A stretch of DNA of 29,353 nucleotides. It comes from a virus. A model generated the notes under the pieces. It was not told where the DNA came from. It did not search any database and was given only the letters and a program-made list of their open reading frames with translations. The stretch spans positions 1-29,353 of the IMG/VR virus record IMGVR_UViG_3300045988_109387. The stretch is one strand, 5' to 3'. Below, one piece after another: positions 1 through 29,353 of this stretch. The position numbers were made by a program, and so were the translations under genes. Each line of letters opens with the position of its first letter. Position 1 is the first letter of the stretch.

Positions 1-55
1 AACAACCGGGGCTTTACCATATCAGACCGACCACGACAACGTCGCCGAAGTCCAC
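1..55. repeat. Terminal direct repeat, copy 1 (identical to 29299..29353); circular-assembly overlap
   Basis: Bases 1-55 (aacaaccggggctttaccatatcagaccgaccacgacaacgtcgccgaagtccac) match 29299-29353 base for base. The ORF at 22..927 and its terminator run across the junction. Confidence 0.9.
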
Positions 56-927
56 GCACCCGTCTCATACGTGATATCCTTAAGAGGTCTCACATACAAT
101 CCAGTCTCATCCAACTGAAAACCACTATACTCAACACCAACAGCCGGAACATTCAAATCAGTCACATTCGGCTTCACATACTCCGGGAACGTCAAAATCT
201 GACTCTTCGACCACGCCTTCGCCTCCCATGCGGGGCCTCTCGTCGCCTTAACGGCCATACTGACAATATTACCGGACATCGAACACTCATACCAGACAGA
301 CCAATCCTTCGCCCATTGGCCCTGACCCAACCGAATATTAGTCAATGACAGCCACTCATCATTGATACGACGATACCGCTGGCCATCGGACGATGTAACG
401 GCTTCAACCCCATTGACAGCCCAAACCGCGATCAACTGATTCCAATCATTCACCTCGATCGTGCCATCAACATGGATCTTCGGAGCCACATCAGACACGG
501 TACCAGCCGTAACCCTAGCGATGACCAGACCATTGATCTGCGCGTTGGGAATACTGGCATCCCACGACTGCAACCACGCGCCCGGAGTCTCACCATGAGA
601 CAGACTCGGATCATAAGCGGCGACCACAATCTTATAATCACCCGTCGAATCAGCCACGTTCACCGTCATAGGCTCCGTTACCGCATAAGTGTACGAGCCG
701 GTCTCATTCCACGGTCTCACGGTACCGCAATGAGGCTTAACGGTGACAGTCAACCCGTCAATCGTCACCAACGGGCTAGGACTGCCATACCGGACACCCT
801 GAACGCCACCGAAAGCAGAACCATCGGACGGGACCAAGAACGGATTGACAACACGCCGATAATCATCAGCCGTATAAGTCGGAAGCCCGTTCAAAGCAGT
901 CAAAGGATGCAATACGATATCCGTCAT
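22..927 (-). CDS. Putative tail fibre / receptor-binding protein (last gene of the tail module)
   Basis: 301-aa ORF from the track. It is the last gene of the minus-strand tail module, after the Tal-like and fibre-like genes, and is followed by a terminator hairpin plus T-run across the circular junction. I recognise no named motif, so the function is by position only. Confidence 0.45.
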   Translation of the reverse strand: MTDIVLHPLTALNGLPTYTADDYRRVVNPFLVPSDGSAFGGVQGVRYGSPSPLVTIDGLTVTVKPHCGTVRPWNETGSYTYAVTEPMTVNVADSTGDYKIVVAAYDPSLSHGETPGAWLQSWDASIPNAQINGLVIARVTAGTVSDVAPKIHVDGTIEVNDWNQLIAVWAVNGVEAVTSSDGQRYRRINDEWLSLTNIRLGQGQWAKDWSVWYECSMSGNIVSMAVKATRGPAWEAKAWSKSQILTFPEYVKPNVTDLNVPAVGVEYSGFQLDETGLYVRPLKDITYETGAWTSATLSWSV

Positions 928-943
928 AAATCATTCCTCACAA

Positions 944-1618
944 TCAATTCTTCGACGTGGACACACCCATTTTACCCACCACGGAAGATAGTCGGGAAAC
1001 CTCCGCCCTAAGCTCGTCCACCCCATCCATAGCCTCCTGAACCAAACGCAAAGCAGCCACACTCAACCTCGGATAGTCAACGCCGACCGGATTCCCCTCA
1101 TCATCGTATTCGCAGAAGAAGCCAAGCCCGGCATCATCCAAATCTTCAGCCAGAAACCCGACAACCGGCTGAGCGTCATCAAGCTTCAGGTTCAGATCAT
1201 CATTCAGGAAATACACCTTCCACCCCAACCGACGGAGAGCGCCAACGGGAATGAACCCATCAGCATCAGTGACACCCGACACCGAAGACGCCGACGAACA
1301 ATCAACCCCCAACACGCCATCATGAAGACAATAAACCGGCTTCCTATAAGTCGACGAAAGCGGATTATCATACATGTTACGAACACCGGTACCACCATGA
1401 GCAGACACCACCACCGCATTTGCCTCGCCAACATCAGCCTGATTCTGCTTAGTGGCCAACGATTCAAAATCCTTCTCGACATCAGAAACACGTTCACCCA
1501 ATCGACTGACACTCTTACCGACACTAGCCAGCAGTTCCCGCAACTGACGGTGAACCTCCGCGAACTGACGGGCGGTAGCATCCACCCCATCGAGAGAAAA
1601 CCTGAACTTACTTTGCAT
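944..1618 (-). CDS. Tail-fibre-like protein with a C-terminal intramolecular chaperone (peptidase S74-like) domain
   Basis: 224 aa. The N-terminus looks coiled-coil (RQLRELLASVGKSVSRLGERVSDVEKDFESL). The C-terminal stretch VVGFLAEDLDDAGLGFFCEYDDEGNPVGVDYPRLSVAALRLVQEAMDGVDELRAEVSRL fits the pattern of the tail-fibre auto-chaperone domain. Confidence 0.5.
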   Translation of the reverse strand: MQSKFRFSLDGVDATARQFAEVHRQLRELLASVGKSVSRLGERVSDVEKDFESLATKQNQADVGEANAVVVSAHGGTGVRNMYDNPLSSTYRKPVYCLHDGVLGVDCSSASSVSGVTDADGFIPVGALRRLGWKVYFLNDDLNLKLDDAQPVVGFLAEDLDDAGLGFFCEYDDEGNPVGVDYPRLSVAALRLVQEAMDGVDELRAEVSRLSSVVGKMGVSTSKN

Positions 1619-1627
1619 CAGAACCTC

Positions 1628-2734
1628 CTACTGCAATACAGGCGTAATAGTCCACACGCCACTAAAATCAATGTCATATCCGACGACACGAGCCTCACCA
1701 TGATCAAACCCATCGAAACGACCATCATCATCGGAGACGGTCCACGCGACCACATCCCCGGGCCTCCACTCCTCGTAAACGATCGGAGCGGCCAACAGGC
1801 TCAACGTCATGCTTATAGTATTCGTACCATCCCGCAATTGCCGCAACGAAGCCGAAGCGTGAGCATTCAAAGTCTCTTTCTGCGTAATGCTCAACGACGG
1901 ATGAACAACATGCTCCACAACAGGACGATAAGACTGTTCGGCCACCATCGTATCGGAACGCAACAGGGTTTCGCCGGTCGTATCCCCGACCGCCACGACC
2001 ATGTTCGCACCATAGCCAGCCGTATAATCCTCCAATACCCTGAAAGACGTCATCACGCTCTCCTCAAACGTCGTGACCGGCGTAACGGAACCTATCCTAT
2101 CCGCAACCGTCAAAACCGGCAGGTACCCGCCATCAACGGCCCTCCATGACGTACACCATTCCGGGCCATTCTGCACGTTCGACAACTCCTGAAGAACACT
2201 CAACAACGTCTTATCGGAAGACTCCTTATACGTCCTATCACGCTTAACGGAGCTATGTTTCGTCTCCACGTCGAACACGAACCGGTGATCCTTAAACGTA
2301 GACTTCACGAGATCATCCACGATCCGAGTCTGCCCCCAAGCGGAATAGGAATGATCCCCCACATACACGCTATCGAAATAATGCTCAACGGTCGCCACCG
2401 TGAGCGTCAACCCATCGCCCTGCAACGTCCGTTCACGTTTAACGACAATACCACCCCATAACACCGTCGAACCACGAACCAAAAGAATCGCCACTCCATA
2501 CGGGATCGTAGCCTCATTCCAATTGGACGGAACATTCGCCCACGGAAGCGTCATCGTCTCACTCGTCGCCTCCTCAAACCGATACGAAAGCTTGGAAACC
2601 TGCAAGTCCGGAAACTCAGCCAATACGATCCCACTGGTCAAAGACACGGCAAGAAACTGAAAACCTGCAGTATCCCACATGACGCGACCACGACCGAAAA
2701 TAGAAACCCCATTCAAAACATTAGTCGAACCCAT
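1628..2734 (-). CDS. Tal-like minor tail protein / tail tip hub
   Basis: 368 aa, immediately downstream of the Dit-like gene in the canonical TMP-Dit-Tal order of siphoviruses. There are 12 nt between the upstream stop codon and this ATG. Confidence 0.55.
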   Translation of the reverse strand: MGSTNVLNGVSIFGRGRVMWDTAGFQFLAVSLTSGIVLAEFPDLQVSKLSYRFEEATSETMTLPWANVPSNWNEATIPYGVAILLVRGSTVLWGGIVVKRERTLQGDGLTLTVATVEHYFDSVYVGDHSYSAWGQTRIVDDLVKSTFKDHRFVFDVETKHSSVKRDRTYKESSDKTLLSVLQELSNVQNGPEWCTSWRAVDGGYLPVLTVADRIGSVTPVTTFEESVMTSFRVLEDYTAGYGANMVVAVGDTTGETLLRSDTMVAEQSYRPVVEHVVHPSLSITQKETLNAHASASLRQLRDGTNTISMTLSLLAAPIVYEEWRPGDVVAWTVSDDDGRFDGFDHGEARVVGYDIDFSGVWTITPVLQ

Positions 2735-2746
2735 GGCATTCCTCCT

Positions 2747-3637
2747 TCACAGGTAAGCCGGGTAGAACGAAACCGTCATCCGAGCCGTATTTGAATACTC
2801 ACCAGCATTGAAACCCCAAACATTCAACCCGGGTTCCGCCTGACTCCACTCACGACGAACGACACGACCACGGGCCGGATCCGTACCATCAACCAGAATC
2901 TCATGCGTCACACCATTGATGGTCACATAATGGGCACTACCAAGGCTCATATTAAAAGCAATGGTATGCCCACTCCCCACATGCGATACCTGCGGGTTGA
3001 CGACAGGACCGTCAATACGGATCATCATCGGGCTGGGAGCTGTACCATCATTCGACAGGGACACCTTGCCGGATATGACAGTCTCGCTCCACACCCATTG
3101 AGACAACGATTCGGTGGGATCCTCGAACCTGTAAGGGAAGGTCATACCCCCCGACGCGTTCGGTAGGAAGGAAGTACCGGACACGGGATCCAACCCATGC
3201 AGGTACGGGCTCAAAGACGTCAACCCAAGACTGAAACGGAGAATATTCACCCCATCCCATTTGATCAACGGTGCTGGCCCAGACTGCCATACCCGTACCT
3301 GACGGCCAATCTTCCCCAATCGTGCGATCAGCAGCATTCCACCAGTATCCAAAACGCTCTTAAACGCATTCCACGAAGTAATGCATGATTCCGTACAGCG
3401 GCCGATGATATGACCTTCGATCGTAATGGTCCGGCCTTGCAAGCGTGGTAGGTTACCATACCAGCCATCAGTCATGGTCTTTTCGCTCGTTTTCAACGTG
3501 GACGCGACACCGTCGAACAAGCCGGACACGTCCTGAAACGTCACATGCCATTCGCACCCGTTATCATCTACCCCATACAAGGGAAAACCATTCAACGTCA
3601 ATTGAAGATCGCGAGGATCAGTAGGAAACATGCTCAT
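2747..3637 (-). CDS. Distal tail protein (Dit-like)
   Basis: 296 aa, the first gene after the tape measure. Both position and size are typical for Dit. Confidence 0.55.
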   Translation of the reverse strand: MSMFPTDPRDLQLTLNGFPLYGVDDNGCEWHVTFQDVSGLFDGVASTLKTSEKTMTDGWYGNLPRLQGRTITIEGHIIGRCTESCITSWNAFKSVLDTGGMLLIARLGKIGRQVRVWQSGPAPLIKWDGVNILRFSLGLTSLSPYLHGLDPVSGTSFLPNASGGMTFPYRFEDPTESLSQWVWSETVISGKVSLSNDGTAPSPMMIRIDGPVVNPQVSHVGSGHTIAFNMSLGSAHYVTINGVTHEILVDGTDPARGRVVRREWSQAEPGLNVWGFNAGEYSNTARMTVSFYPAYL

Positions 3638-3655
3638 AAAACCATCATACCCTTA

Positions 3656-5707
3656 TCACACGTAGCAGAAATTAATCATTCGTACCGTTTCACGAGCCGC
3701 CATCGTCGGATCGGAAGCATTAACGGTAATCGGAGCCGACACTCGAGGACCACTGTTCGTGTCCGCTAAAACCGGAGACGAGACAGGAAGACCTGCCGGG
3801 CTGTTCAACAGACTGTTCGGCATGATGTCAGCGACCATGTGTTGGACCGGGTTCACAGCCAAACTCATGTTCGCTTCAACGCCCTTGCCTAAACCGGCCG
3901 GGATCATCTTGCCTATCTCGTCACGGAACACGCGAGACGGGGAATGAATACCCAACGCGGACTTAGCGGCGTTCACGACATTGGCGGCCGCGTTCTTAGC
4001 TGCCGACACTGCGCTGCTGATAGCGTTCTTAATACCGTTGACCAGACCCATGATGATGTTCTTACCGGCATCCAACAACCAGTTACCGGCCCCGTTGAAC
4101 GCGCCCTTGATCTTACCGCCGATACCCCGTACGGTGTTCATGACACTGTTGACACCATTCGACACGGCACTGGTGATACCATTCCACGCACTTGACACCA
4201 GTCCCTTGACCGAATTCCAAACACCAGTCCAATAAGCGGCGATGGAGCCCATGACCGAACTGATCACGCCTGAAACAGCGTTGATAGCGGCTGACACGTT
4301 GGCTTTAATACCATTCCATACGGTTGTGATGACATTGCCGATACCATTCCACACGCCATCCCAATCACCCTGCACCGCCGCCAGTACGGTAGTGATAATC
4401 GCGTTGATGACATTCATCACCGAACTGATGACCGTCTGAATATACGGGAACACCGCATCGATGGCACCCTGAATGGTTGACGCGACCGTCGTAAACGCGG
4501 CCTGAACAGTCGGCAACGCCGCCTGTACCACCGCAGCCAGATTATTGATGACCGGCGTGACAGTGGTCATGACCGTCGTCCCAACCTCCGTGAGTTTCGC
4601 GACCAGTGACCCCAACACCGGGGTGAAAGTTTGGAACGCAGCACCCAACACAGGCATGATCGCACTGCCGAGATTCTGACAGGCTTGCATGAACTGTTGC
4701 AAAACAGGCAACAATTGGCTGGACACGATCTGGGCTACCGGAGCGAAAGAAGACTGGAACACGCTACCGATCTGCTGTAAAACCGGACCAGCCGACGATA
4801 CGAGACCCTTGAACATTCCGGGCAGACTGCCGATACCATCAGCGAGTACGCTCATTCCCTCCGTCAACGGGCCTTTGAACGAGTCCAATATTTGTACGCC
4901 CACATTCACGACGGACGCTTCCAAATTACCCATGGCACCCTCGATGGTTTGAGTGCTCGTGGCCGCTTCCTTCGCAGCATCGGTCATACCCAAATCCATG
5001 ACGGCCTTATTGAATTCCTCGGCCGATATCTTACCCTTGGCCATCGCATCACGAAAATCACCCGTGTATGCGCCGTTCTTCTTCATGGCTTCCTGAAGTT
5101 TGCCGGATGCGCCCGGGATAGCATCACTTAACTGGTTCCAGTTTTCGGTCGTGAGCTTGCCGGCACCAGCCGTCTGAGTGAGTACCATGCCAACTGATCG
5201 GAACGTGTCCGCGTTACCGCCGGCTACCGCGTTCAGGTTACCCGCGGCTTCAGCTAAGTCGGCGTATCCGTCCACGCCGTTCGCTGCCAGTTGGGCTGTC
5301 GTGTTGCGAATGTCGGACAGGTCGTATACTGTCTGGTCGGCGTATTTTTGCGTGCTTGCGGTAAGTTTGTCGATGGTGCTTGTGTCCAAGCCAGCGAAAG
5401 ACAATGTGCTAGCGAACTTCTGAGCACTGTCGGAGGCTTCGATGATACCACCGCTAAGATTCGAGATAGCGTCCACGGCCATATTAACGCCAGTGGAAAC
5501 CAAACCACCCATCGCTCCCGCGATAGCAGCGAATTTACCGGCACCCCCGGAAGCCTTGGTGGACGACTTATCAATCTGGTCCATGCCTTCGCCGGCTTGG
5601 CGAGCGGATTGTTCTATCTGTCGGCTACCGGATTGAATGGTTTTAACACCGGCTTCCCAATCACTGGTGTTAATTTCAGCGTCGAGTATGAGCGTGGAGT
5701 CAGCCAT
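3656..5707 (-). CDS. Tape measure protein
   Basis: 683 aa and Ala/Gly/Ser/Val-rich. It has repeated W-x-G motifs (VWNGIGNVITTVWNGIKANVSAAINAV...WTGVWNSVKGLVSSAWNGITSAV) and follows the G/T chaperone pair. Confidence 0.9.
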   Translation of the reverse strand: MADSTLILDAEINTSDWEAGVKTIQSGSRQIEQSARQAGEGMDQIDKSSTKASGGAGKFAAIAGAMGGLVSTGVNMAVDAISNLSGGIIEASDSAQKFASTLSFAGLDTSTIDKLTASTQKYADQTVYDLSDIRNTTAQLAANGVDGYADLAEAAGNLNAVAGGNADTFRSVGMVLTQTAGAGKLTTENWNQLSDAIPGASGKLQEAMKKNGAYTGDFRDAMAKGKISAEEFNKAVMDLGMTDAAKEAATSTQTIEGAMGNLEASVVNVGVQILDSFKGPLTEGMSVLADGIGSLPGMFKGLVSSAGPVLQQIGSVFQSSFAPVAQIVSSQLLPVLQQFMQACQNLGSAIMPVLGAAFQTFTPVLGSLVAKLTEVGTTVMTTVTPVINNLAAVVQAALPTVQAAFTTVASTIQGAIDAVFPYIQTVISSVMNVINAIITTVLAAVQGDWDGVWNGIGNVITTVWNGIKANVSAAINAVSGVISSVMGSIAAYWTGVWNSVKGLVSSAWNGITSAVSNGVNSVMNTVRGIGGKIKGAFNGAGNWLLDAGKNIIMGLVNGIKNAISSAVSAAKNAAANVVNAAKSALGIHSPSRVFRDEIGKMIPAGLGKGVEANMSLAVNPVQHMVADIMPNSLLNSPAGLPVSSPVLADTNSGPRVSAPITVNASDPTMAARETVRMINFCYV

Positions 5708-5708
5708 T

Positions 5709-6038
5709 TTATCGATCCTTTCCGAGTTCGTTTATGATGCGGCTGATTTTCTGGTCTCCATGTTTGGTGAATGCGGCTGTCAAGCATTCGAAGGTCAACC
5801 GGTATTGTTCGGCTAAACGGATTTGATGCAAGTGTTGGCCTTCTTTGATCAGGTCGAGCATTAGGCTTGGTGTTAGCTTGTTTTCCAATGCGTCATGGAT
5901 AGCTTCCCACCCGTATAGGTTGCCGAGTTCGGCAAGGATGCGAATACTGGGTGAAGCATGTTGGCGTGTTTCCTGTTGTTTGAATGCTTGCATCCGCTGT
6001 TTTTCAGCGGGGGTGAGAAGACTATCCCATGAACGCAT
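5709..6038 (-). CDS. Tail assembly chaperone, T-like segment
   Basis: 109-aa ORF between the G-like gene and the TMP. It lies in the -1 frame relative to 6047..6397. Its TAA stop (5711..5709) is one nucleotide upstream of the TMP ATG (5707). Confidence 0.5.
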   Translation of the reverse strand: MRSWDSLLTPAEKQRMQAFKQQETRQHASPSIRILAELGNLYGWEAIHDALENKLTPSLMLDLIKEGQHLHQIRLAEQYRLTFECLTAAFTKHGDQKISRIINELGKDR

Positions 6039-6046
6039 GTTATATG

Positions 6047-6397: not shown

Positions 6398-6506
6398 TTC
6401 TGCTCCTTTGAATATGGTATTATGGGTATTGGCTCCTTTATTTGCCATTGTGTTGACTGGAAGGCCCGTCATCGTATTGGAACGGTGACGGGCTTTCTTA
6501 GTTGGT

Positions 6507-22573: not shown

Positions 22574-22590
22574 AAAGAAGAGGAATCGAT

Positions 22591-23378: not shown

Positions 23379-23551
23379 CATACAGGCTCCATGACGTACC
23401 GCTCGAAAGGATCATGGTGGAACATTACCTCTTCGACCTCGAGCAGGATGTCGAAAAGACCGCCGAAATCCTCTCGATGGATGAGGACCGCGTCAGAGAG
23501 ATTTACGACAATTACATGAAATTCATCATGCCGATAGGGGGAGGCAAATGA
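23375..23551 (+). CDS. Small protein (58 aa), sigma region-4-like HTH (tentative)
   Basis: Hand translation gives MTYRLHDVPLERIMVEHYLFDLEQDVEKTAEILSMDEDRVREIYDNYMKFIMPIGGGK*. ATGA overlaps at both ends suggest coupling. It is below the ORF-track cutoff. Confidence 0.45.
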   Translation: MTYRLHDVPLERIMVEHYLFDLEQDVEKTAEILSMDEDRVREIYDNYMKFIMPIGGGK

Positions 23552-23718
23552 AGAAAGCGACGAGGAACCAGATCATCAAATGGTATGAGGACGGTCTGAC
23601 CGTCGACGAATTCGCGCCGCTCATCCCGCAATATTGTCGACAGGAAATCGAAGCCGTCATCAAGGAGTACAGGAAAGAGAAGGAATGGAACCGGCTGATT
23701 GGTGTCTCGCGTTCATGA
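23548..23718 (+). CDS. Small protein (56 aa), HTH-like (tentative)
   Basis: Hand translation gives MKKATRNQIIKWYEDGLTVDEFAPLIPQYCRQEIEAVIKEYRKEKEWNRLIGVSRS*. GGGGGAGG lies upstream. It is below the ORF-track cutoff. Confidence 0.45.
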   Translation: MKKATRNQIIKWYEDGLTVDEFAPLIPQYCRQEIEAVIKEYRKEKEWNRLIGVSRS

Positions 23719-23781
23719 TGATCGCACCCACGATACTTTTTTACTGCAGGAGACGATAAGAGCGAGAAATCGACGGTCTAC

Positions 23782-23811
23782 GGCGTGTCGCACTAACGTG
23801 GCACGCCTTTT
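23782..23811 (+). terminator. Hairpin plus TTTT built from the CGGCGTGTCG motif
   Basis: GGCGTG (23782-87) pairs with CACGCC (23802-07), then TTTT follows. The full motif is at 23781-23790. Confidence 0.5.
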
Positions 23812-23812
23812 A

Positions 23813-23821
23813 TGATATATT
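23813..23821 (+). promoter_or_regulatory. Extended -10 promoter PF (TGATATATT) with conserved leader
   Basis: 23811-23869 is ~83% identical (50/60 by hand alignment) to 27159-27218. This includes the leader hairpin CAAGC-aagga-GCTTG (23830-44). Confidence 0.55.
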
Positions 23822-23866
23822 AGACATATCAAGCAAGGAGCTTGGCAAACACAAAAGGAGCAACCA

Positions 23867-24223
23867 ATGAACACCATCACCACCGACGAAGTCAAAACCA
23901 TGATGCACAACATCGACGTCCGCCTCGACCAGAAAAGCCACTACGACACCGGCCACACACCCAAAGGCGTCATCTACCACGTCGGCGACCACAAATACGT
24001 CACACTCGACGACTACTCCCAAGCCTTCGAAGACTACGAATGGGACCACAACGGCGCGGAATGGGCATGCTACCTCTACACGCTCACCAAGAACAATCCG
24101 GAACGCATCGACTTCTACGCACAGGCATACAACATCGGAGGCATGGAAACCCTCGAAGTCATCTACAACAACGTCACGGAATCAACGCCGATGGCCGTCG
24201 TCTACCCAATCTACAAGCACTGA
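23867..24223 (+). CDS. Small acidic protein (118 aa), unknown function
   Basis: AAAAGGAG is the RBS. It is the first gene of the recombination unit, upstream of erf. Confidence 0.6.
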   Translation: MNTITTDEVKTMMHNIDVRLDQKSHYDTGHTPKGVIYHVGDHKYVTLDDYSQAFEDYEWDHNGAEWACYLYTLTKNNPERIDFYAQAYNIGGMETLEVIYNNVTESTPMAVVYPIYKH

Positions 24224-24254
24224 CATCCAACATAAGGCAGAAAAGGAACCAACC

Positions 24255-24857
24255 ATGGAAAACAACAACGCCAGCAACCTCAACCGGAAATTCGCCGAAG
24301 TCCTCAACGAAGTCCCGAACTTCAGCACCGATGAAACCGCCAACGCCGGAAGCCGCACCTACAAGTACCTCAACCTCGCCACGCTCCTCAAGAACATCAA
24401 ACCGATCTTCGCAAAGCACGGGCTCGCATTCACCCAAAAAGTAACCTTCGACGGCCCCGGAGATGGACGCCAGATCCTCGGAACCATCGAAACCATCATC
24501 TTCGACGACACCGACCAGATGACGGTCTGCGAATACCCCTTCTTCGTCACCGGAGACCCACAACAGGTCGGCAGCGCCATCACCTACGCACGCCGCTACA
24601 GTCTCACCACCATCCTCGGCATCTTCCCCGACAAGGACGACGACGGAAGCTACGCAAAACAGCAATACAACACCGCCGACAAGCCGATAGGAGCAGACCA
24701 GTACGCCACCCTCGTCAAAGCCATGGACGCACGCCACCTCCCAACCGAAGCACGAGGCGAATTCATCAGCGGCACACTCAACCGGCCCGTCAAAGGCTGG
24801 CGAGGAATCACCCAAGCAGACCTGACCAATCTCATGGACGCCATCAACAGAATGTGA
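24255..24857 (+). CDS. erf: ERF-family single-strand annealing protein
   Basis: 200 aa. YKYLNLATLLKNIKPIFAKHGLAFTQ...GSAITYARRYSLTTILGIFPDKDDDGS matches the ERF pattern. Confidence 0.8.
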   Translation: MENNNASNLNRKFAEVLNEVPNFSTDETANAGSRTYKYLNLATLLKNIKPIFAKHGLAFTQKVTFDGPGDGRQILGTIETIIFDDTDQMTVCEYPFFVTGDPQQVGSAITYARRYSLTTILGIFPDKDDDGSYAKQQYNTADKPIGADQYATLVKAMDARHLPTEARGEFISGTLNRPVKGWRGITQADLTNLMDAINRM

Positions 24858-24861
24858 CACA

Positions 24862-24890
24862 AGACCCCGGCACGCCACCGGGGTCTTTTC
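24862..24890 (+). terminator. Intrinsic terminator after erf
   Basis: AGACCCCGG-cacgcca-CCGGGGTCT followed by TTTTC. Confidence 0.75.
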
Positions 24891-24937
24891 CATATCCGAA
24901 TCACGACACGCCGTGTGTCATCCAACCACATACAAGC

Positions 24938-24946
24938 TGATATAAT
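24938..24946 (+). promoter_or_regulatory. Extended -10 promoter PG (TGATATAAT), with the motif in inverted orientation at 24904-24913
   Basis: CGACACGCCG is the reverse complement of CGGCGTGTCG. The downstream aaAGATATCAAcTTCAAGGA resembles the other leaders. Confidence 0.5.
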
Positions 24947-24977
24947 AAAGATATCAACTTCAAGGAAAGGACCAACA

Positions 24978-25880
24978 ATGAAAATCATCAACCTATCACA
25001 AGCCAACAACACCAACGCATGGCTCCAAGAACGCCTAGGCCGCATCACCGGCACCAAAAGCGGCAACCTAGCCCTAGACCACTACCAGCAAACCGACACC
25101 AAAAAAATCCTCGAATACCGAGACAAAGCACTCAAACAATCAAAAGAAGCAACAACAAGGGACGAAACCGAAGAACACTACCGGGCAGCACTGAAATACG
25201 ACGAACTGCTCGCCAAAACCGAAACCAAAAACAAACGCCTCAAAGTCGGCATCGACTTCTGGAAATTCCTAGCCGAAACCATGGCCGAACAGCCAGACGG
25301 AGAAAACCCCATGGAGCGCGGCCACAGACTCGAGCCTGAAAACATCCAACTCACCCTCCAACAACTCGGCTACAAGCAGGACAACTGCATCACCGACTGC
25401 GGCATCTGGGAAAGCGACGAAGACAACCGAATCGCCTGCAGCCCGGACGCCTACCAAGCATCCGAAAACCCAACATGGGCCATCGAATGCAAAAGCCTCG
25501 GAAGCGCCTACCACCTCCAAACCGTCATCCCATGGATGATCCACACACAACTCATCCGCCACCACACCCTACCCGACAACCTCGCCGACGCAGCCGCACA
25601 AGTACTCCCCCCAACAACCACAAGCCTCAACGCCACCGGCATGGACTTCATCCCCAGCACATACCGGGCACAAGTCCTCCAATACTTCGTCGTCTGCGAC
25701 ACACTCGAAACCCTCTACTTCAGCATGTACGACCCCCGCGTCTACGGCGACGCACGACACCAAATCATCCCAGTACACCGAAAGGATATCAAACCACTCA
25801 TCGCCGACCACAAACGCAAACAACTCAACGTCCTACATATCATCGACACCATCACCGAAGCAACAGGAGCATCATTCTAA
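24978..25880 (+). CDS. YqaJ-type (lambda Exo-like) recombination exonuclease
   Basis: I chose the ATG at 24978 because AAGGAAAGGA lies upstream. WLQERLGRITGTKSGN, SPDAY and ECKS fit a YqaJ / PD-(D/E)xK pattern, and the gene is paired with erf. Confidence 0.7.
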   Translation: MKIINLSQANNTNAWLQERLGRITGTKSGNLALDHYQQTDTKKILEYRDKALKQSKEATTRDETEEHYRAALKYDELLAKTETKNKRLKVGIDFWKFLAETMAEQPDGENPMERGHRLEPENIQLTLQQLGYKQDNCITDCGIWESDEDNRIACSPDAYQASENPTWAIECKSLGSAYHLQTVIPWMIHTQLIRHHTLPDNLADAAAQVLPPTTTSLNATGMDFIPSTYRAQVLQYFVVCDTLETLYFSMYDPRVYGDARHQIIPVHRKDIKPLIADHKRKQLNVLHIIDTITEATGASF

Positions 25881-26122
25881 TGACAATCGACACCCTCCTC
25901 AAAAGCCCAGACATCTACGTACTCTTCGACGGCTGCCCCACATGCAAACCAGAAGACGCAGCATTCCTCGACTCATGCCGCGCGGCAGCGCAATACATGC
26001 AGAAACAGCTCCAAGTCGTACCATCCGGCAGCCCCACCGCAACCGTCATCCGCACCATCGCCAAAAACCAAAACAAACCAATCGAATACCCACTGGTACT
26101 GTTCGACGGAAAAATCCACTAA
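25880..26122 (+). CDS. Glutaredoxin/NrdH-like small redox protein (tentative)
   Basis: 80 aa with a CPTC motif after a beta-strand-like IYVLFDG, and a C-terminal YPLVLFDGKIH. The start overlaps the exo stop (TAATG). Confidence 0.5.
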   Translation: MTIDTLLKSPDIYVLFDGCPTCKPEDAAFLDSCRAAAQYMQKQLQVVPSGSPTATVIRTIAKNQNKPIEYPLVLFDGKIH

Positions 26123-26163
26123 ACCCCAACCGAACCCATCAACAATAACGAAAGGACTGCAAA

Positions 26164-26499
26164 ATGAAAACCGAATGGTGGACCGCGGTCATCACCACAG
26201 GACTCACAGCCGGATACGCCACCACAGTAACGCAACTCTCCCCCGGCCCCGGTAACATCTTCTCCAAACTCCGGAAAAAGCTCACCGCCAAAACCGAAAA
26301 CGCAACCAATGAAACCATCCATAGTCTCAGCAGCCTCGCCTACTGCGGATGGTGCCTCAGCCCATACGCGACACTACCGGTATGGACGGCCGCGGCGAAA
26401 GCCTTCCATGTCCGCTTCGGTATCAAATGGTTAGCCGGACTGATGACAACCACGGCCATCGCAGCCTACTACCGACACCAAGCAGAAAGCAGGATCTGA
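26164..26499 (+). CDS. DUF1360-like membrane protein (tentative)
   Basis: 111 aa with hydrophobic segments and CGWCLSPYATLPVW, which is reminiscent of DUF1360. Confidence 0.45.
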   Translation: MKTEWWTAVITTGLTAGYATTVTQLSPGPGNIFSKLRKKLTAKTENATNETIHSLSSLAYCGWCLSPYATLPVWTAAAKAFHVRFGIKWLAGLMTTTAIAAYYRHQAESRI

Positions 26500-26786
26500 T
26501 GCACAACATCCCACAACTCCACGTCGTCACCATCCTCTCCCTATTCAAGGAGCCAATCACTCAAGAACACCTGACTTCAATAGCATCGACGCTCGGATAC
26601 CACGACACTCCGCAAAGCCTGAGAAGCCGCATGGTCGAACTCGAACGAGCAGGATACACCCACCGCGTCGACAGGAACGGGACAAGCATCAGGAAACGAC
26701 CATGCTGGCGATGGACACTCACCAAAAAAGGTCAGGAATACATGCAAGAACTCCTCGACATCACAACACCGGGCGAAAGGGAATAA
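26499..26786 (+). CDS. Winged-helix DNA-binding protein (tentative)
   Basis: The ATG at 26499 overlaps the upstream TGA by one base. LRSRMVELERAGYTHRVDRNGTSIRKRPCWRWTLTKKG looks like a wHTH wing. Confidence 0.5.
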   Translation: MHNIPQLHVVTILSLFKEPITQEHLTSIASTLGYHDTPQSLRSRMVELERAGYTHRVDRNGTSIRKRPCWRWTLTKKGQEYMQELLDITTPGERE

Positions 26787-26792
26787 GAAACC

Positions 26793-27119
26793 ATGGCAAC
26801 GGAACCATTCACCGCCATCATCAAAGGCGAGAAAGTCACGATCCACCAGAACGCCTATACCGGACTCTTCTATGCCATCACACGCAACGGCAGTCATACC
26901 CCAGTCGACTACGGGCTCATAAGAACGCAGACGACCAGCCTACAGCGACTCAAATACTGGCAACACCGTTTCGGATACACCCAAGCCGAACTCGCAAAAC
27001 TGATCCACGTATCCAGTCCGACCATCGTCATGATGTGGGAAAACGGGTTAAGACACCCACGCAAGGAATACCGACAGCGAATCAATGCCGAGCTCGGCGG
27101 CGACATCTTCTTTGAATGA
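26793..27119 (+). CDS. XRE-family (Cro/C1-type) HTH protein with an N-terminal extra domain
   Basis: 108 aa. FGYTQAELAKLIHVSSPTIVMMWENGLRHP is a typical HTH_XRE motif. Confidence 0.7.
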   Translation: MATEPFTAIIKGEKVTIHQNAYTGLFYAITRNGSHTPVDYGLIRTQTTSLQRLKYWQHRFGYTQAELAKLIHVSSPTIVMMWENGLRHPRKEYRQRINAELGGDIFFE

Positions 27120-27127
27120 CTCATCCT

Positions 27128-27156
27128 GCGGCGTGTCGCGTTCGAACACACGCCGC
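27128..27156 (+). terminator. Perfect 9-bp hairpin built from the motif, with a weak U tract
   Basis: GCGGCGTGT (27128-36) pairs with ACACGCCGC (27148-56), followed by ATTAT. It could equally be a dyad protein-binding site. Confidence 0.4.
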
Positions 27157-27160
27157 ATTA

Positions 27161-27169
27161 TGCTATACT
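27161..27169 (+). promoter_or_regulatory. Extended -10 promoter PH (TGCTATACT) with conserved leader
   Basis: Near-duplicate of PF. The leader hairpin CAAGC-aaaga-GCTTG is at 27178-92. Confidence 0.55.
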
Positions 27170-27215
27170 AAATACATCAAGCAAAGAGCTTGGCCAACAC
27201 AAAAAGGAACAAACA

Positions 27216-27485
27216 ATGGAAACCGTCAAATACCTCGCCACCATCATCAGCCTCATCATGCAACAACCAAAAATCGGCACCATCCTCGACGAAGACGGAC
27301 TCGACCCGGAAATCAACTACGGCAACATCGGCATCCAAGACTACCACGCCTTCATCGACCTCTATGGGCTCCTCAACGGCATTGAAGAAGTCGGAACCAC
27401 GCCAATCCACGAAATAGACAACGGTAACGGACACGACTTCACCATGACAGCCCCAATCACCATCCGCTTCTTCCACTGGAAGTAA
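27216..27485 (+). CDS. Small acidic protein (89 aa), stand-alone cassette
   Basis: It has its own promoter PH and a downstream hairpin. I recognise no motif. Confidence 0.55.
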   Translation: METVKYLATIISLIMQQPKIGTILDEDGLDPEINYGNIGIQDYHAFIDLYGLLNGIEEVGTTPIHEIDNGNGHDFTMTAPITIRFFHWK

Positions 27486-27501
27486 CCCCAGAACATACAG
27501 A

Positions 27502-27542
27502 AACGCCCCGCAGACGGCCGAACAAGCCGAACACGGGGCGTT
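27502..27542. terminator. Hairpin between convergent genes
   Basis: AACGCCCCG (27502-10) pairs with CGGGGCGTT (27534-42), with an inner CGGC/GCCG stem. The flanks are only modestly U-rich in both directions. Confidence 0.45.
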
Positions 27543-27559
27543 CTCATAACAGAGGCAGA

Positions 27560-27859
27560 TTAACGGCTCACACCGACATAATGCACGCCGAACAAGCCAG
27601 CCACACCAGAACCAACCAGCGCACAAGCACCACCAACCACGGCAACCCACGATGGGACACCCGGAACGGCACTCACAAGACTCGCAACGGCACCGGCAAT
27701 ACCCACCAGCCCGGACACCAAATACGCCCAACGACGAGTATCAACATCAAACGTCGGCACATAATTGTCCGAACCGTCCGCACACTCATTCGTCATCGCG
27801 GTGTCAATCGTCGGCTCACCAGTCAGCTCATCATCAGCCAACACCACATGCTTAGCCAT
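27560..27859 (-). CDS. Holin-like membrane protein (two C-terminal TM helices)
   Basis: I chose the ATG at 27859 because AAAGGA lies ~10 nt upstream. WAYLVSGLVGIAGAVASLVSAV and WVAVVGGACALVGSGVAGLFGV are TM-like. It lies immediately downstream of the endolysin. Confidence 0.5.
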   Translation of the reverse strand: MAKHVVLADDELTGEPTIDTAMTNECADGSDNYVPTFDVDTRRWAYLVSGLVGIAGAVASLVSAVPGVPSWVAVVGGACALVGSGVAGLFGVHYVGVSR

Positions 27860-27877
27860 AAACAACAATCCTTTCAA

Positions 27878-28720
27878 TCAGTCGAAAATACGACCGTCGT
27901 TAAGCCGCTTCTGGAACTCCTTCACGGCCATACTCGGGACAGGACTAATCATACCGTCACCCGGAAAACCGTTCATCTCCATAAGGAAACGGTGAATGAA
28001 CTCCGGACCAGCATTACGCGGACGATCCGTGATACCGAAACGATGCGACATCCACTCAACCCAATCACTACCAGAAGTACCCTCCTCCAAACAGGCGATA
28101 TTCTGATTCTCTAAACACTTGATCTGCCCGGACATGACACCGTCCACCGACGTGCCAGCCACCTCCTGAGCACGACGCATAGTCAAAGGGCCCCACGAAC
28201 CATCAACATTAAGCTTCGTCACCGACTGTGTAGCCGGCTGAGTAGGTATCGGATTCGAAGGAGCCACCAAACCACGAGCCAAACGATCCAACCGATCCAT
28301 ATCATACGAGCCCGGACACTGCGTAGAGGAACAATCCCGGTGACGGATCAACGGCAGATCACCATACTCGGCACGCAAATCACGAATCAAAGCGGCAATC
28401 GTCGCATAATCCCCATCCGACTGGCGAGGGTTACACTCGATACCAATGCCCATGTCATTGCCCTTCGAGCCGACGCCGACACCGTCACCGGCATGCCAAG
28501 CACGATCATCCGGGTCCACGATACAGGCCACACGGCCAGCCTCGGCCACATAATGAGCGGAAGCGCCACGACCTTTACTGCACAGGGTATTGATCACACC
28601 CTCGAACGTCGGATGCGTATTCGGATCACCCCACCAGTGGATCACAATATACTTGATCCCATACGGGCGACCACTCGTATAATTCGGACTATCATACTTC
28701 GTAATGTATTCATATGACAT
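27878..28720 (-). CDS. Endolysin: N-acetylmuramoyl-L-alanine amidase (Amidase_2/PGRP) plus a C-terminal wall-binding region
   Basis: I chose the ATG at 28720 (MSYEYITKYDSPNY...) because AAAGGAG lies 6 nt upstream. IVIHWWG, SAHYVAEAGR, AWHAG and the IRHRD...CPG motifs are present. LNVDGSWGPLTMRRAQE resembles a PG-binding repeat. Confidence 0.85.
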   Translation of the reverse strand: MSYEYITKYDSPNYTSGRPYGIKYIVIHWWGDPNTHPTFEGVINTLCSKGRGASAHYVAEAGRVACIVDPDDRAWHAGDGVGVGSKGNDMGIGIECNPRQSDGDYATIAALIRDLRAEYGDLPLIRHRDCSSTQCPGSYDMDRLDRLARGLVAPSNPIPTQPATQSVTKLNVDGSWGPLTMRRAQEVAGTSVDGVMSGQIKCLENQNIACLEEGTSGSDWVEWMSHRFGITDRPRNAGPEFIHRFLMEMNGFPGDGMISPVPSMAVKEFQKRLNDGRIFD

Positions 28721-28731
28721 ATTGTCTCCTT

Positions 28732-28881
28732 TCAGACAGTCAAAACATACCAAATGGTAAAAAGAAAACGTGCGAAAGCCGGAATCCCGGTAACAAGCAG
28801 ATAGCCAGCCACTACCATGACGCCGACAAGGAACGACGACAAGAGGATAAGCAAAACATTCTCGATAAATTCCTGACGCAT
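28732..28881 (-). CDS. Small two-TM protein (49 aa), holin candidate upstream of the endolysin
   Basis: Hand translation gives MRQEFIENVLLILLSSFLVGVMVVAGYLLVTGIPAFARFLFTIWYVLTV*. Its TGA lies within the endolysin RBS region. It has a weak RBS of its own and is below the track cutoff. Confidence 0.4.
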   Translation of the reverse strand: MRQEFIENVLLILLSSFLVGVMVVAGYLLVTGIPAFARFLFTIWYVLTV

Positions 28882-28922
28882 ATAACCAGCATACCAAAAC
28901 CACCTAAGATAAACTTAGTCAT

Positions 28923-29270
28923 ATGACCGAACTAATATCATCCATCATCGGACTCGCCGGCATAGCAGTAGGCGGCACCATCACATGGGCAAGCACCCGA
29001 CGCAACAACCTCACCACCGCCTACCAACACCTCGTCGAAGCCCAAGGCGAACTCAAAAAACAAATAGACGCACAAGACGAAAAAATCAACAAACTCGTCC
29101 AAACACGAGACGAACTCCAACACGTCAGCGACCTCGAAACAGGCTACATACGCTCACTAGGCCACTGGCTCGCCAAATTCTGCGAAATCATCGACGACAA
29201 GGAATTCCTCACACGCAACCCCAAACCATCACTACCAGACGAACTCAGAGACCGCATCTGCCCACTCTAA
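28923..29270 (+). CDS. Membrane-anchored coiled-coil protein (115 aa), opposite orientation to its neighbours
   Basis: It has an N-terminal TM segment (LISSIIGLAGIAVGGTITWA) followed by a coiled coil (QHLVEAQGELKKQIDAQDEKINKLVQTRDELQH). It ends 20 nt before the bidirectional terminator. Confidence 0.6.
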   Translation: MTELISSIIGLAGIAVGGTITWASTRRNNLTTAYQHLVEAQGELKKQIDAQDEKINKLVQTRDELQHVSDLETGYIRSLGHWLAKFCEIIDDKEFLTRNPKPSLPDELRDRICPL

Positions 29271-29285
29271 CCCCACACCAATACG

Positions 29286-29313
29286 AAAAACCCCGGCAAA
29301 CAACCGGGGCTTT
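29286..29313. terminator. Bidirectional terminator ending both the late operon and the 28923 gene
   Basis: AAAAA-CCCCGG-caaacaa-CCGGGG-CTTT. On the minus strand it is followed by TTTTTCG. Its right half is also present at 6-11 because of the terminal repeat. Confidence 0.75.
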
Positions 29314-29353
29314 ACCATATCAGACCGACCACGACAACGTCGCCGAAGTCCAC
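29299..29353. repeat. Terminal direct repeat, copy 2 (identical to 1..55)
   Basis: Exact 55/55 match to the start of the window. Confidence 0.9.

What the first reader, a model, noticed from the sequence alone, without database searches (positions are those of the whole stretch)
1..29353. Extreme G+T versus A+C strand asymmetry that flips at ~5 kb (inside the tape-measure gene) and ~17.29 kb, independent of gene orientation
Hand counts of plus-strand G+T per 60 nt were as follows. At 7501-7560 it was 48, at 12001-12060 40 and at 5301-5360 42. At 22001-22060 it was 16, at 2001-2060 22, at 4501-4560 26 and at 28381-28440 24. The plus strand is therefore keto-rich from ~5.3 to 17.29 kb and amino-rich over the rest of the circle. 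This is not a sense-strand effect, because minus-strand genes fall in both arcs. Tail and lysis genes use T/G-ending codons (for example ...ACT TCG GCG ACG TTG TCG TGG TCG GTC TGA at 22..927). Minus-strand head genes use C/A-ending codons (ATG ATA GAC CTC GCA ATA TGC ATG ACC CTC CAA AAC GAA GGC TAC at 7811). The ~5 kb transition is gradual, between ~4.9 and 5.8 kb, and lies within one ORF, the TMP. The 17.29 kb transition is sharp, at the divergent promoter. The pattern resembles two replichores: under the usual leading-strand G/T rule, an origin near 5 kb and a terminus near 17.3 kb, or the reverse if the polarity is unusual. The amplitude is far larger than I would expect. Alternatives are a mosaic of modules from phages with opposite bias, or a strand-specific mutational process such as deamination of a displaced strand.
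Basis: partly seen in the sequence, partly recalled or inferred. Interest (0 to 1): 0.7.

Follow-up and report, generated by a model that had tools for sequence, protein, structure and literature searches.

The report
Replichore-like extreme strand bias in phage
A circular 29.3-kb Bifidobacterium-type phage genome is split into two nearly equal arcs with opposite and extraordinarily strong G+T versus A+C strand bias that ignores gene direction, most likely the footprint of two replication forks that leave an iteron origin and meet inside the tail tape-measure gene.

Summary
All seven hand counts are exact. At four-fold sites the plus strand is 86% G+T in the head-gene arc and 78-89% A+C in the other arc. 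Tail and lysis genes, on the same strand as the head genes, carry the complementary codon bias.

About 34 collinear relatives (76-88% nt identity) share the pattern. A collinear sister clade and the nearest cultured phage (Bifidobacterium phage BlindUri1) do not. The bias therefore arose in place, in opposite directions in the two halves of one operon, and a mosaic origin is rejected.

Spacers and amino-acid replacements follow the arcs, so codon selection is not the main cause. The asymmetry lies mainly in transitions: C>T and A>G are 7-9 times more frequent on the G+T-rich strand.

The cumulative-skew extremes (19.2 kb and 5.06 kb) split the circle 47-54% in eight genomes. One extreme lies just right of an iteron array (18,583-18,709), beside the initiator genes. 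The array's repeat type covaries with the initiator's N-terminal domain.

Best reading: two replichores with an iteron origin and a diffuse antipodal terminus in the tape-measure gene. Polarity is then inverted (leading strand A+C-rich), so the cause of the bias remains open.

The parts
5063..19198 (+). Arc 1: the plus strand is G+T-rich (core 6.5-16.2 kb). All genes here are on the minus strand: head, packaging, SSB and Ant.
   Evidence: Cumulative G+T skew has its minimum at 5,063 and its maximum at 19,198. Four-fold sites on the plus strand: A .056, C .085, G .61, T .25. Spacers are 0.70 G+T, n=560.
19199..29298 (+). Arc 2, first part: the plus strand is A+C-rich (core from 20.3 kb). It holds plus-strand replication and recombination genes, the minus-strand lysis genes, and the plus-strand gene 28,923-29,270.
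   Evidence: Four-fold sites on the plus strand are A .31, C .58, G .086, T .024 in plus-strand genes. The endolysin phase-1 plus-strand G+T is 0.15-0.31.
1..5062 (+). Arc 2, second part: the plus strand is A+C-rich although all genes (tail genes and the 3' two-thirds of the tape-measure gene) are on the minus strand.
   Evidence: Four-fold sites on the plus strand are A .39, C .39, G .18, T .034 in tail and lysis genes. In two-fold codons NNC is 24% and NNA 15%, against 91% and 83% in head genes.
2800..7300 (.). Gradual sign change (inferred fork-meeting or terminus zone). The zero crossing is near 5.06 kb, inside the tape-measure gene (3,656-5,707, minus strand).
   Evidence: Plus-strand position-3 G+T falls from 0.94-0.97 to about 0.2 across six genes. 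Within the tape-measure gene, averaged over 24 genomes, it falls from 0.64-0.76 through 0.5 to 0.26-0.31. Position-3 diversity there is mostly 0.3-0.5 (range 0.25-0.55), so the sites are saturated.
17016..19500 (.). Low-skew zone around the inferred origin. Composition here follows local gene direction with small amplitude.
   Evidence: Mean profile of 8 genomes aligned on the iterons: 0.41-0.53 over the plus-strand dUTPase and RusA genes, 0.64 over the minus-strand gene 18,799-19,176, and below 0.40 only from +1.75 kb onwards.
18583..18709 (.). Iteron arrays: three 23-nt units (each holding TCGATACCTAGGTATCGA), then 3-4 units of 15 nt (AGACCCTTCTACTAG). They lie in a convergent intergenic region. 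Inferred replication origin.
   Evidence: Arrays found. The same two-part array occupies the same place in every relative examined, with varying sequence. Repeat type covaries with the N-terminal half of the O-like initiator.
19540..21808 (+). Replication genes: a DnaD-like/initiator fragment (19,540-19,830), an O-like initiator (20,004-20,882) and a DnaC-like helicase loader (20,960-21,808).
   Evidence: PHROG hits phrog_11233, phrog_678 and phrog_50.
27560..28903 (-). Lysis genes on the minus strand inside arc 2: an Amidase_2 endolysin (homologues are 280 aa, so the likely gene is 27,878-28,720) and a downstream 105-aa ORF.
   Evidence: Pfam PF01510. Homologue lengths. Third positions follow the arc.
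28923..29270 (+). Plus-strand gene embedded between the minus-strand lysis and tail genes. Its third positions are 97% A/C with no T.
   Evidence: phrog_1397. Position-3 G+T is 0.03.
29291..29309 (.). Hairpin CCCCGG-N7-CCGGGG with a T-run on the minus strand. Probable bidirectional terminator ending the late operon.
   Evidence: Read from the sequence.
29299..29353 (+). 55-nt repeat of positions 1-55 (assembly overlap, showing a circular contig).

Best explanation
The window is the complete circular genome of a tailed phage. Its host is probably a Bifidobacterium. It carries a strand-specific substitution bias tied to the direction of replication, and that bias has run almost to saturation.

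Two forks leave an iteron origin at about 18.6-19.2 kb, beside the O-like initiator and the DnaC-like loader genes. They meet, without a fixed terminator, in a zone a few kb wide centred on the antipode, which falls in the 5' half of the tape-measure gene. In each replichore the leading-strand sequence becomes A+C-rich and its complement G+T-rich. This happens mainly because C>T and A>G substitutions are 7-9 times more frequent on one strand than on the other. A weaker second component, about a quarter of the size on a logit scale, makes sense strands slightly A+C-rich.

The tail and lysis genes lie beyond the point where the two operons converge but before the antipode. They are replicated head-on, so they carry the complementary codon bias.

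Shown: the two-arc geometry, its independence of gene direction, its in-place origin, and the transition-dominated asymmetry. Inferred: that forks cause it, that the iterons are the origin, and what produces the inverted polarity. Two possible causes of the inverted polarity are G.T/T.G misincorporations fixed preferentially in the lagging nascent strand, and some other strand-specific repair or fidelity difference.
For: Strand, not sense. (1) Genes of both orientations share the plus-strand composition in arc 2. Four-fold A+C is 0.89 in plus-strand genes and 0.78 in minus-strand tail and lysis genes. Minus-strand head genes in arc 1 are 0.86 G+T. Three changes of gene direction at 27.5, 28.9 and 29.3 kb leave plus-strand composition unchanged.

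Geometry. (2) The cumulative-skew extremes are 0.47-0.54 of the circle apart in eight genomes.

Origin. (3) Iteron arrays sit 0.6-1.6 kb from the skew maximum in all eight genomes. Repeat type covaries with the initiator's N-terminal type: AGACCC-type repeats (3 or more copies) occur in 5/5 against 1/6 genomes, and CAAAA-type 22-mers in 0/5 against 5/6. The genes in between do not covary in this way. The sister clade has similar arrays inside its own initiator gene.

Not codon selection. (4) Spacers follow the arcs, 0.70 against 0.41 G+T. Amino-acid replacements relative to the unskewed sister are shifted to A/C-rich codons in head genes (.33 against .45) and to G/T-rich codons in tail genes (.54 against .40). 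The most highly expressed gene, the capsid gene, is the least biased and keeps AAG and CAG.

In-place origin. (5) The sister clade and BlindUri1 share the gene order but have ordinary codon usage. The pattern is uniform across 34 relatives.

Active maintenance. (6) Synonymous sites are saturated (position-3 diversity mostly 0.3-0.5) and the gradient inside the tape-measure gene is smooth.

Substitution spectrum. (7) A strand-symmetric substitution model is rejected (2dlnL 286-399). About 90% of the gain comes from asymmetric transitions. There is no strong neighbour context.

Precedent. (8) Inverted GC-skew polarity has been reported in an actinobacterium: in S. coelicolor the origin lies at the cumulative-skew maximum (PMC1285363).
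Against: Polarity is opposite to the near-universal rule that the leading strand is G+T-rich. It is also opposite to what deamination of the exposed lagging-strand template predicts, although the asymmetric substitutions are exactly the deamination types.

The switch on the origin side is not a step. It is a low-skew zone of about 2.5-4 kb in which skew follows gene direction. I can explain this only by inference: Okazaki-length uncertainty in where leading strands start, or turnover of accessory genes.

The iteron-initiator covariation rests on 11 genomes, and the elements are only 1.3 kb apart.

No replication data exist. Transversions are also significantly asymmetric, which a pure deamination or misincorporation model does not require.
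Confidence: 0.55

Rival explanations
1. Two replichores with the usual polarity. Forks start in the tape-measure/tail region (about 5 kb), for example from R-loops formed by the G-rich late transcript, and converge on the iteron region (about 18.6-19.2 kb). Classical deamination of the exposed lagging-strand template then makes the G+T-rich strands.
For: The asymmetric changes are C>T and A>G on the G+T-rich strand, the classical single-strand deamination signature. By the usual rule the cumulative GC-skew minimum, here 5 kb, marks the origin and the maximum the terminus (PMC7111523). The geometry is equally antipodal.
Against: The only origin-like element and all replication genes lie at the other switch point. 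No synonymous-site conservation marks an element embedded in the tape-measure gene: position-3 diversity there is 0.25-0.55. About 80% of the genes would be transcribed head-on to replication. The 5-kb transition is a broad gradient.
Confidence: 0.12
2. The bias is linked to transcription. The non-template strand becomes A+C-rich, and the tail/lysis region is dominated by antisense (plus-strand) read-through from the early right-arm operon that fades out in the tape-measure gene.
For: Over about 24 of 29 kb the sense strand is the A+C-rich one. In the 17-19.5 kb zone skew follows gene direction. A plus-strand gene (28,923-29,270) sits among the minus-strand late genes.
Against: Hairpins at 27,502-27,542 and 29,291-29,309 lie in the path of such read-through. 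The late operon that gives head genes their bias also transcribes the tail genes. The lysis genes have the reversed bias from their first codons. The switch sits at the antipode of the iterons in eight genomes, not at the operon ends. The known transcription-linked bias has the opposite sign, with the sense strand G+T-rich (own knowledge).
Confidence: 0.08
3. Selection on strand composition, not mutation bias. Examples would be an unstructured A+C-rich lagging-strand template or mRNA, codon choice that differs by gene class, or avoidance of restriction sites.
For: The amplitude is extreme, and no T at all occurs at third positions of two genes. Transversions between A/C and G/T are also asymmetric (p about 1e-2 to 1e-8). 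Parsimony counts show an excess of common-to-rare changes on the tree.
Against: Spacers and replacement sites shift as well, and the gradient runs through a single gene. That argues against selection at the level of translation. The capsid gene is the least biased. Six-base palindromes are no rarer than in unskewed relatives: 11.3-12.5 per kb against 7.8-8.6. That argues against restriction avoidance. The parsimony excess is expected from saturation, about 3 changes per site. Selection on strand composition tied to fork direction is not excluded.
Confidence: 0.15
4. Mosaic genome: the tail/lysis module came from a phage with the opposite bias.
For: Tail genes are more diverged among relatives than head genes. 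Other phages show gene-by-gene patches of bias, for example a TerL with position-3 G+T of 0.20 next to a portal at 0.45.
Against: The same unskewed sister clade holds collinear orthologues of both modules: TerL 81%, portal 72%, tape measure 65%, Dit and minor tail 63%. The transition is a smooth 4.5-kb gradient at saturated sites. All 34 relatives share it. Arc 2 continues unbroken into the right-arm genes.
Confidence: 0.03

Closest known systems
Replication-associated strand compositional asymmetry of bacterial chromosomes and plasmids (replichore GC/keto skew)
   Same: There are two arcs of opposite sign on a circular replicon. The switch points lie at an origin-like site and at its antipode. 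The bias is independent of gene direction and strongest at synonymous and non-coding sites.
   Different: The amplitude is far larger. Four-fold-site GC skew is about +/-0.75, and 1-kb window GC skew reaches 0.45. Chromosomes typically show a few hundredths to about 0.1 (own knowledge). Polarity is inverted if the iterons are the origin. The transitions occupy about 15% of the replicon.
Vertebrate mitochondrial DNA heavy/light-strand asymmetry
   Same: The amplitude at four-fold sites is comparable. The same pair of asymmetric transitions (C>T, A>G on the G+T-rich strand) dominates. Amino-acid composition is dragged along with the bias.
   Different: In mtDNA one strand is biased all the way round, as a gradient without a sign flip. 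Here the sign flips twice and the arcs are equal.
Streptomyces coelicolor genomic GC skew (origin at the cumulative-skew maximum)
   Same: It is an actinobacterial replicon whose origin lies at the maximum, not the minimum, of cumulative GC skew (PMC1285363).
   Different: It is a linear 8.7-Mb chromosome with a weak skew. No cause has been shown to be shared.
Transcription-linked skew of phages such as T7 and lambda (Szybalski's rule)
   Same: In most of this genome the skew sign coincides with gene direction, and a small sense-strand component exists.
   Different: The tail and lysis genes violate the rule. The sense strand here is C-rich, whereas under the rule it is G-rich (purine-rich).
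Bifidobacterium phages BlindUri1 and BlindBasel1 (honeybee gut, host B. asteroides)
   Same: They are the nearest cultured relatives (portal 50% identical). The genome size is about 32 kb and the two-arm architecture is the same, including a small opposite-strand gene between the tail and lysis genes.
   Different: BlindUri1, the one examined, has only an ordinary weak skew: position-3 G+T is 0.35-0.57 in nearly all genes (extremes 0.23 and 0.65) and the 3-kb window span is 0.14, against 0.34 in the window clade.

Membership tests
Replichore-type (replication-associated) strand asymmetry | Exactly two sign changes on a circular replicon, splitting it into two arcs | tested here: met
   The cumulative G+T skew has one maximum (19,198) and one minimum (5,063). 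The GC-skew extremes are at about 19.5 and 5 kb.
Replichore-type (replication-associated) strand asymmetry | Arcs of similar length (terminus antipodal to origin) across relatives | tested here: met
   The extremes lie 0.47-0.54 of the circle apart in 8 genomes (ratios are my arithmetic).
Replichore-type (replication-associated) strand asymmetry | Sign independent of gene orientation | tested here: met
   Tail and lysis genes (minus strand) and right-arm genes (plus strand) share the plus-strand composition. A small sense-strand component is superimposed.
Replichore-type (replication-associated) strand asymmetry | One switch point coincides with the replication origin | tested here: inconclusive
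   An iteron array that covaries with the initiator lies 0.6-1.6 kb from the skew maximum. Origin function is inferred, not measured. The switch is a low-skew zone, not a step.
Replichore-type (replication-associated) strand asymmetry | Leading strand enriched in G and T (usual polarity) | tested here: not met
   With the origin at the iterons, the leading-strand sequence is A+C-rich in both arcs. This feature is met only if the origin is near 5 kb.
Replichore-type (replication-associated) strand asymmetry | Fork directions measured (marker frequency, Okazaki mapping) | not testable with these tools
   No read-level or experimental data are available.
mtDNA-type strand-displacement deamination asymmetry | Excess of C>T and A>G on one strand | tested here: met
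   Maximum-likelihood rates on the plus strand of arc 1: A>G 4.3 against T>C 0.59, and C>T 3.3 against G>A 0.38. The pattern is mirrored in arc 2. Transitions give about 90% of the likelihood gain.
mtDNA-type strand-displacement deamination asymmetry | The same strand biased around the whole circle (gradient, no sign flip) | tested here: not met
   There are two sign flips.
Transcription-associated skew | Sign follows the sense strand in every transcription unit | tested here: not met
   Seven minus-strand genes (tail, lysis and the 3' part of the tape-measure gene) have the opposite sign to the minus-strand head genes.
Mosaic of modules with different ancestry | Sharp breakpoints, and different nearest relatives for the two parts | tested here: not met
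   The gradient is smooth over 4.5 kb. Both parts have collinear orthologues in the same unskewed sister clade.
Lambdoid-type iteron origin with O-like initiator | Tandem direct repeats of about two helical turns next to or inside the initiator gene | tested here: met
   Three to five units of 22-23 nt plus 3-5 units of 13-16 nt lie 1.3 kb upstream of the O-like gene. The sister clade has 21-nt and 15-nt arrays inside its initiator gene.
Lambdoid-type iteron origin with O-like initiator | Iteron sequence covaries with the initiator's DNA-binding (N-terminal) domain | tested here: met
   5/5 against 1/6, and 0/5 against 5/6. Fisher p is about 0.013 (my arithmetic). The sample is small and the elements are physically linked.
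Lambdoid-type iteron origin with O-like initiator | Initiator binding and origin firing demonstrated | not testable with these tools
   This needs experiments.

The most novel reading that the evidence does not exclude
A clade of double-stranded-DNA tailed phages replicates with a fork asymmetry that is both mtDNA-like in strength and inverted in sign. Transitions are 7-9 times more frequent on one strand. The cause might be error-prone or uncorrected lagging-strand synthesis, or a long-lived single-stranded intermediate of unexpected geometry. The result is that a 29-kb genome carries two near-saturated replichores whose terminus lies inside an operon. If so, the clade is a compact natural system in which the contributions of replication and transcription to strand asymmetry are cleanly separated. 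It would also show that the leading-strand G+T rule is not universal.
Probability: 0.3. Interest if true: 0.78.

Novelty: new variant of a known kind. Interest (0 to 1): 0.62.

Why it matters
Whether strand compositional asymmetry comes from replication or transcription, and from mutation or selection, is still debated. In most genomes gene direction and fork direction are confounded and the signal is weak. Here about 6 kb of essential tail and lysis genes lie on the 'wrong' side of the point where the two operons converge. The signal is close to saturation. Graded comparators also exist: a sister clade and a cultured relative without the bias.

Three practical consequences follow:
- Skew-based origin calling would place the origin of these phages at the wrong pole.
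- Codon-usage host prediction and gene callers will be misled, because half the late operon uses the complementary codon set.
- Protein sequences in the two halves are being pulled in opposite compositional directions.

Tried and rejected
- Near-identical DNA in cultured phages: none found.
- Prophage relatives in 185,579 species genomes, searched with the portal protein and with a five-sequence portal alignment: none found.
- tRNA genes: none.
- A deaminase, a base-modification gene or a DNA polymerase gene that could explain a mutator effect: Pfam and PHROG searches of the right-arm ORFs found none. The hit annotated 'nucleotide kinase' is only DUF3310.
- Restriction-site (palindrome) avoidance as the benefit of skew: rejected. 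The window clade has more six-base palindromes per kb than its unskewed relatives.
- A motif-specific deaminase: no strong neighbour context for the depleted bases.
- A cis element embedded in the tape-measure gene at the zero crossing: synonymous diversity dips only mildly, to 0.25 at 4,988-5,047.
- Polarised parsimony counts of substitutions: discarded as biased, because sites carry about 3 changes each. Replaced by a 12-rate likelihood model.
- Consensus terminator and promoter scans: uninformative. Hairpins were read directly from the sequence instead.
- Literature searches for this phenomenon in phages: nothing specific found.

Full report
**What the window is.** The 29,353-nt window ends in a 55-nt copy of its own start, so it is a circular assembly of a 29,298-nt unit.

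Profile searches identify a complete siphovirus-type genome.
- On the minus strand: an unidentified 301-aa ORF (22-927), a tail protein (944-1,618), minor tail (1,628-2,734), Dit (2,747-3,637), tape measure (3,656-5,707), neck and adaptor proteins, a protease-capsid fusion (9,512-11,395), portal (11,414-13,507), large terminase (13,567-14,826), SSB and an anti-repressor.
- On the plus strand: dUTPase, RusA, a DnaD-like initiator fragment, an O-like initiator (20,004-20,882), a DnaC-like loader (20,960-21,808), Erf and an exonuclease.
- An Amidase_2 endolysin lies on the minus strand at 27,878-28,903.

Two lines of evidence point to a Bifidobacterium host. The endolysin's named homologues are from Bifidobacterium species. 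The nearest cultured phages are Bifidobacterium phages BlindUri1 and BlindBasel1, with a portal 50% identical. No prophage relatives exist in 185,579 species-representative genomes.

**The observation.** All seven hand counts are exact.

One-kb GC skew runs from -0.29 to +0.45, and AT skew from -0.48 to +0.56.

The bias sits at third codon positions. Sense-strand G+T at position 3 is 0.06-0.22 in head genes and 0.03-0.28 in right-arm genes. It is 0.78-0.80 in tail genes, which are on the same strand as the head genes.

Four-fold sites, read on the plus strand:

| Gene class | A | C | G | T |
|---|---|---|---|---|
| Head genes (minus strand) | .056 | .085 | .61 | .25 |
| Right-arm genes (plus strand) | .31 | .58 | .086 | .024 |
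| Tail and lysis genes (minus strand) | .39 | .39 | .18 | .034 |

The tail and lysis genes therefore carry roughly the complement of the codon bias seen in all other genes. Plus-strand composition stays continuous across three reversals of gene direction, at 27.5, 28.9 and 29.3 kb.

Two-fold codons agree. In head genes NNC is 91% and NNA 83%. In tail and lysis genes they are 24% and 15%.

On a logit scale the data fit a large positional term (about 1.7) plus a small sense-strand term (about 0.4). This is my arithmetic.

**Boundaries.** The switch near 5 kb is broader than reported. Plus-strand position-3 G+T falls smoothly from 0.94-0.97 at 7.4-7.8 kb to about 0.2 at 2.8 kb, across six genes. 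Inside the tape-measure gene, averaged over 24 genomes, it falls from 0.64-0.76 to 0.26-0.31.

At the other side, 17.29 kb is a true divergent junction (17,016-17,342), but only a small shift occurs there. From 17.0 to 19.5 kb the skew is weak and follows local gene direction. Full amplitude returns only beyond 20.3 kb.

The cumulative G+T skew peaks at 19,198 and bottoms at 5,063.

**Relatives.** About 34 contigs of 28-31 kb share tape-measure proteins 74-92% identical. All show the same pattern. Eight could be rebuilt to near-completeness; they are collinear with the window at 76-88% nucleotide identity.

A large sister clade has collinear orthologues of both head and tail genes: portal 72%, TerL 81%, tape measure 65%, Dit and minor tail 63%. 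Its codon usage is ordinary (four-fold C .4, G .3, T .2, A .1). It shows only a faint gradient of the same shape.

BlindUri1 has the same architecture and no strong skew.

The span of G+T content in 3-kb windows is 0.34 in the window clade. It is 0.15 in the sister clade, 0.14 in BlindUri1 and 0.06 in distant relatives.

The bias therefore arose in place, in opposite directions in the two halves of a single operon. The mosaic hypothesis fails.

**Not a translational effect.** Three observations argue against codon selection:
- Spacers follow the arcs: 0.70 G+T (n=560) against 0.41 (n=1,001).
- At amino-acid replacement sites relative to the sister clade, first-plus-second-position G+T is .33 against .45 in head genes and .54 against .40 in tail genes.
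- The capsid gene, presumably the most highly expressed, is the least biased. It keeps AAG and CAG.

**Ongoing process and its spectrum.** Synonymous sites are saturated within the clade; position-3 diversity is mostly 0.3-0.5. The local composition therefore reflects a local equilibrium, and the smooth gradient is a property of the process and not a relic.

I fitted an unrestricted 12-rate model to conserved four-fold sites on a 24-genome tree. It rejects strand symmetry (2dlnL 286-399). About 90% of the gain comes from transitions. On the G+T-rich strand, A>G runs at 4.3 against 0.59 for T>C, and C>T at 3.3 against 0.38 for G>A. The other arc mirrors this.

Transversion asymmetry is smaller but significant. 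There is no strong neighbour context.

**Geometry and origin.** In eight genomes the two cumulative-skew extremes are 0.47-0.54 of the circle apart.

The maximum lies 0.6-1.6 kb from a two-part iteron array. In the window this is three 23-nt units at 18,583-18,651 and 3-4 units of 15 nt at 18,655-18,709. The array occupies the same convergent intergenic spot in every relative examined, with differing sequence.

Repeat type covaries with the type of the O-like initiator's N-terminal half:
- AGACCC-type repeats: 5/5 against 1/6 genomes.
- CAAAA-type 22-mers: 0/5 against 5/6 genomes.

The genes lying between the array and the initiator do not covary in this way. The sister clade has analogous arrays inside its own, different, initiator gene. 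I infer that the iterons are the origin.

The antipode then falls in the tape-measure gene. The tail and lysis genes are replicated head-on, which explains why they alone carry the reversed bias.

Each transition is about 3.5-4.5 kb wide. That is roughly what uncertainty of one or two Okazaki-fragment lengths in strand identity, plus variable fork-meeting points, would give on so small a replicon. This is inference only.

**The polarity problem.** With the origin at the iterons, the leading-strand sequence is A+C-rich. That is opposite to the usual rule, under which cumulative GC skew peaks at the terminus (PMC7111523). It is also opposite to what deamination of the exposed lagging-strand template predicts, even though the asymmetric changes are the deamination types.

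An actinobacterial precedent for inverted polarity exists in S. coelicolor (PMC1285363). That paper also reports that genomic GC skew does not reveal the origin in B. longum.

A mechanism that fits the sign is preferential fixation of G.T/T.G misincorporations in the lagging nascent strand. This is inference only.

The alternative is an origin in the tape-measure region with normal polarity. It lacks any origin-like element or synonymous-site conservation there. It would also make about 80% of the genes head-on to replication.

**Other rivals.** Antisense read-through transcription is unlikely, given the hairpins at 27,502-27,542 and 29,291-29,309 and the behaviour of the lysis genes.

Restriction avoidance is rejected, because six-base palindromes are more frequent than in the unskewed relatives.

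Selection on strand composition tied to fork direction cannot be excluded with these data.

**Verdict.** The replichore interpretation is supported, with revised boundaries and an inverted polarity. The phenomenon is a known kind, replication-linked strand asymmetry, but in an unusually extreme and informative form that is restricted to one clade of phages.

Noticed in passing
window 18,583-18,709; the same spot in L081-L095 and in the merged genomes: A two-part tandem-repeat array (22-23-nt units, then 13-16-nt units, followed by a GC-rich hairpin) is conserved in position but not in sequence. Some relatives (L090, L093) carry two different arrays side by side in a longer spacer, as if an origin module had been added rather than replaced.
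   Followed up: partly
window 9,222-9,509 (-): A small gene between the capsid and adaptor genes encodes a collagen-like G-X-Y run (GQGPQGPAGPKGDVGPAGPAGPVGP). It has almost no third-position skew, unlike its neighbours.
   Followed up: partly
window 9,512-11,395 (-): A single 627-aa ORF matches both head-maturation protease and major capsid protein families, so it is a protease-capsid fusion. Its third-position bias is weaker than in the portal and terminase genes, and it prefers AAG and CAG.
   Followed up: partly
window 28,923-29,270 (+): A 115-aa gene with an N-terminal hydrophobic segment and a coiled-coil-like remainder (phrog_1397; weak, sub-threshold HEPN_Apea hit) lies on the opposite strand between the tail and lysis genes. 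BlindUri1 has a small opposite-strand gene in the same place. Function unknown.
   Followed up: no
window 17,577-17,620 and 17,116-17,159: Two perfect hairpins (16-bp and 14-bp stems). The first has A/T runs on both sides, making it a likely bidirectional terminator after a 73-aa plus-strand gene (17,343-17,564).
   Followed up: no
window 27,878-28,903 (-): The endolysin ORF is 341 aa from its first GTG, but all close homologues are 280 aa. The real start is probably internal, near 28,720.
   Followed up: partly
L071, L073, L076, L077 (about 1-5 kb) and L045, L047 (about 0-6 kb): Distantly related phages show patches of third-position bias gene by gene. One example is a large first gene at 0.18-0.20 G+T next to a neighbour at 0.43-0.47. 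In L045 and L047 there is a gradient of the opposite sign, 0.75 falling to 0.47 along the late operon. Strong strand bias may therefore be more widespread in this group of phages.
   Followed up: partly
window (whole); L099, L141, L176: Six-base palindromes are under-represented in all these phages, at 8-12 per kb against about 16 expected. The depletion is weaker in the skewed clade than in the sister clade or BlindUri1.
   Followed up: partly
window 15,443-16,159 and 15,922-16,728 (-): The SSB ORF as listed overlaps the anti-repressor gene by 238 nt. The SSB homology starts at residue 98, so the true SSB start is probably downstream, near 15,870.
   Followed up: no
L143 (contig IMGVR_UViG_3300045988_006865, 56,432 nt): One sister-clade contig is nearly twice the usual genome length. 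It could be a dimeric assembly or a phage joined to other DNA. Not examined.
   Followed up: no
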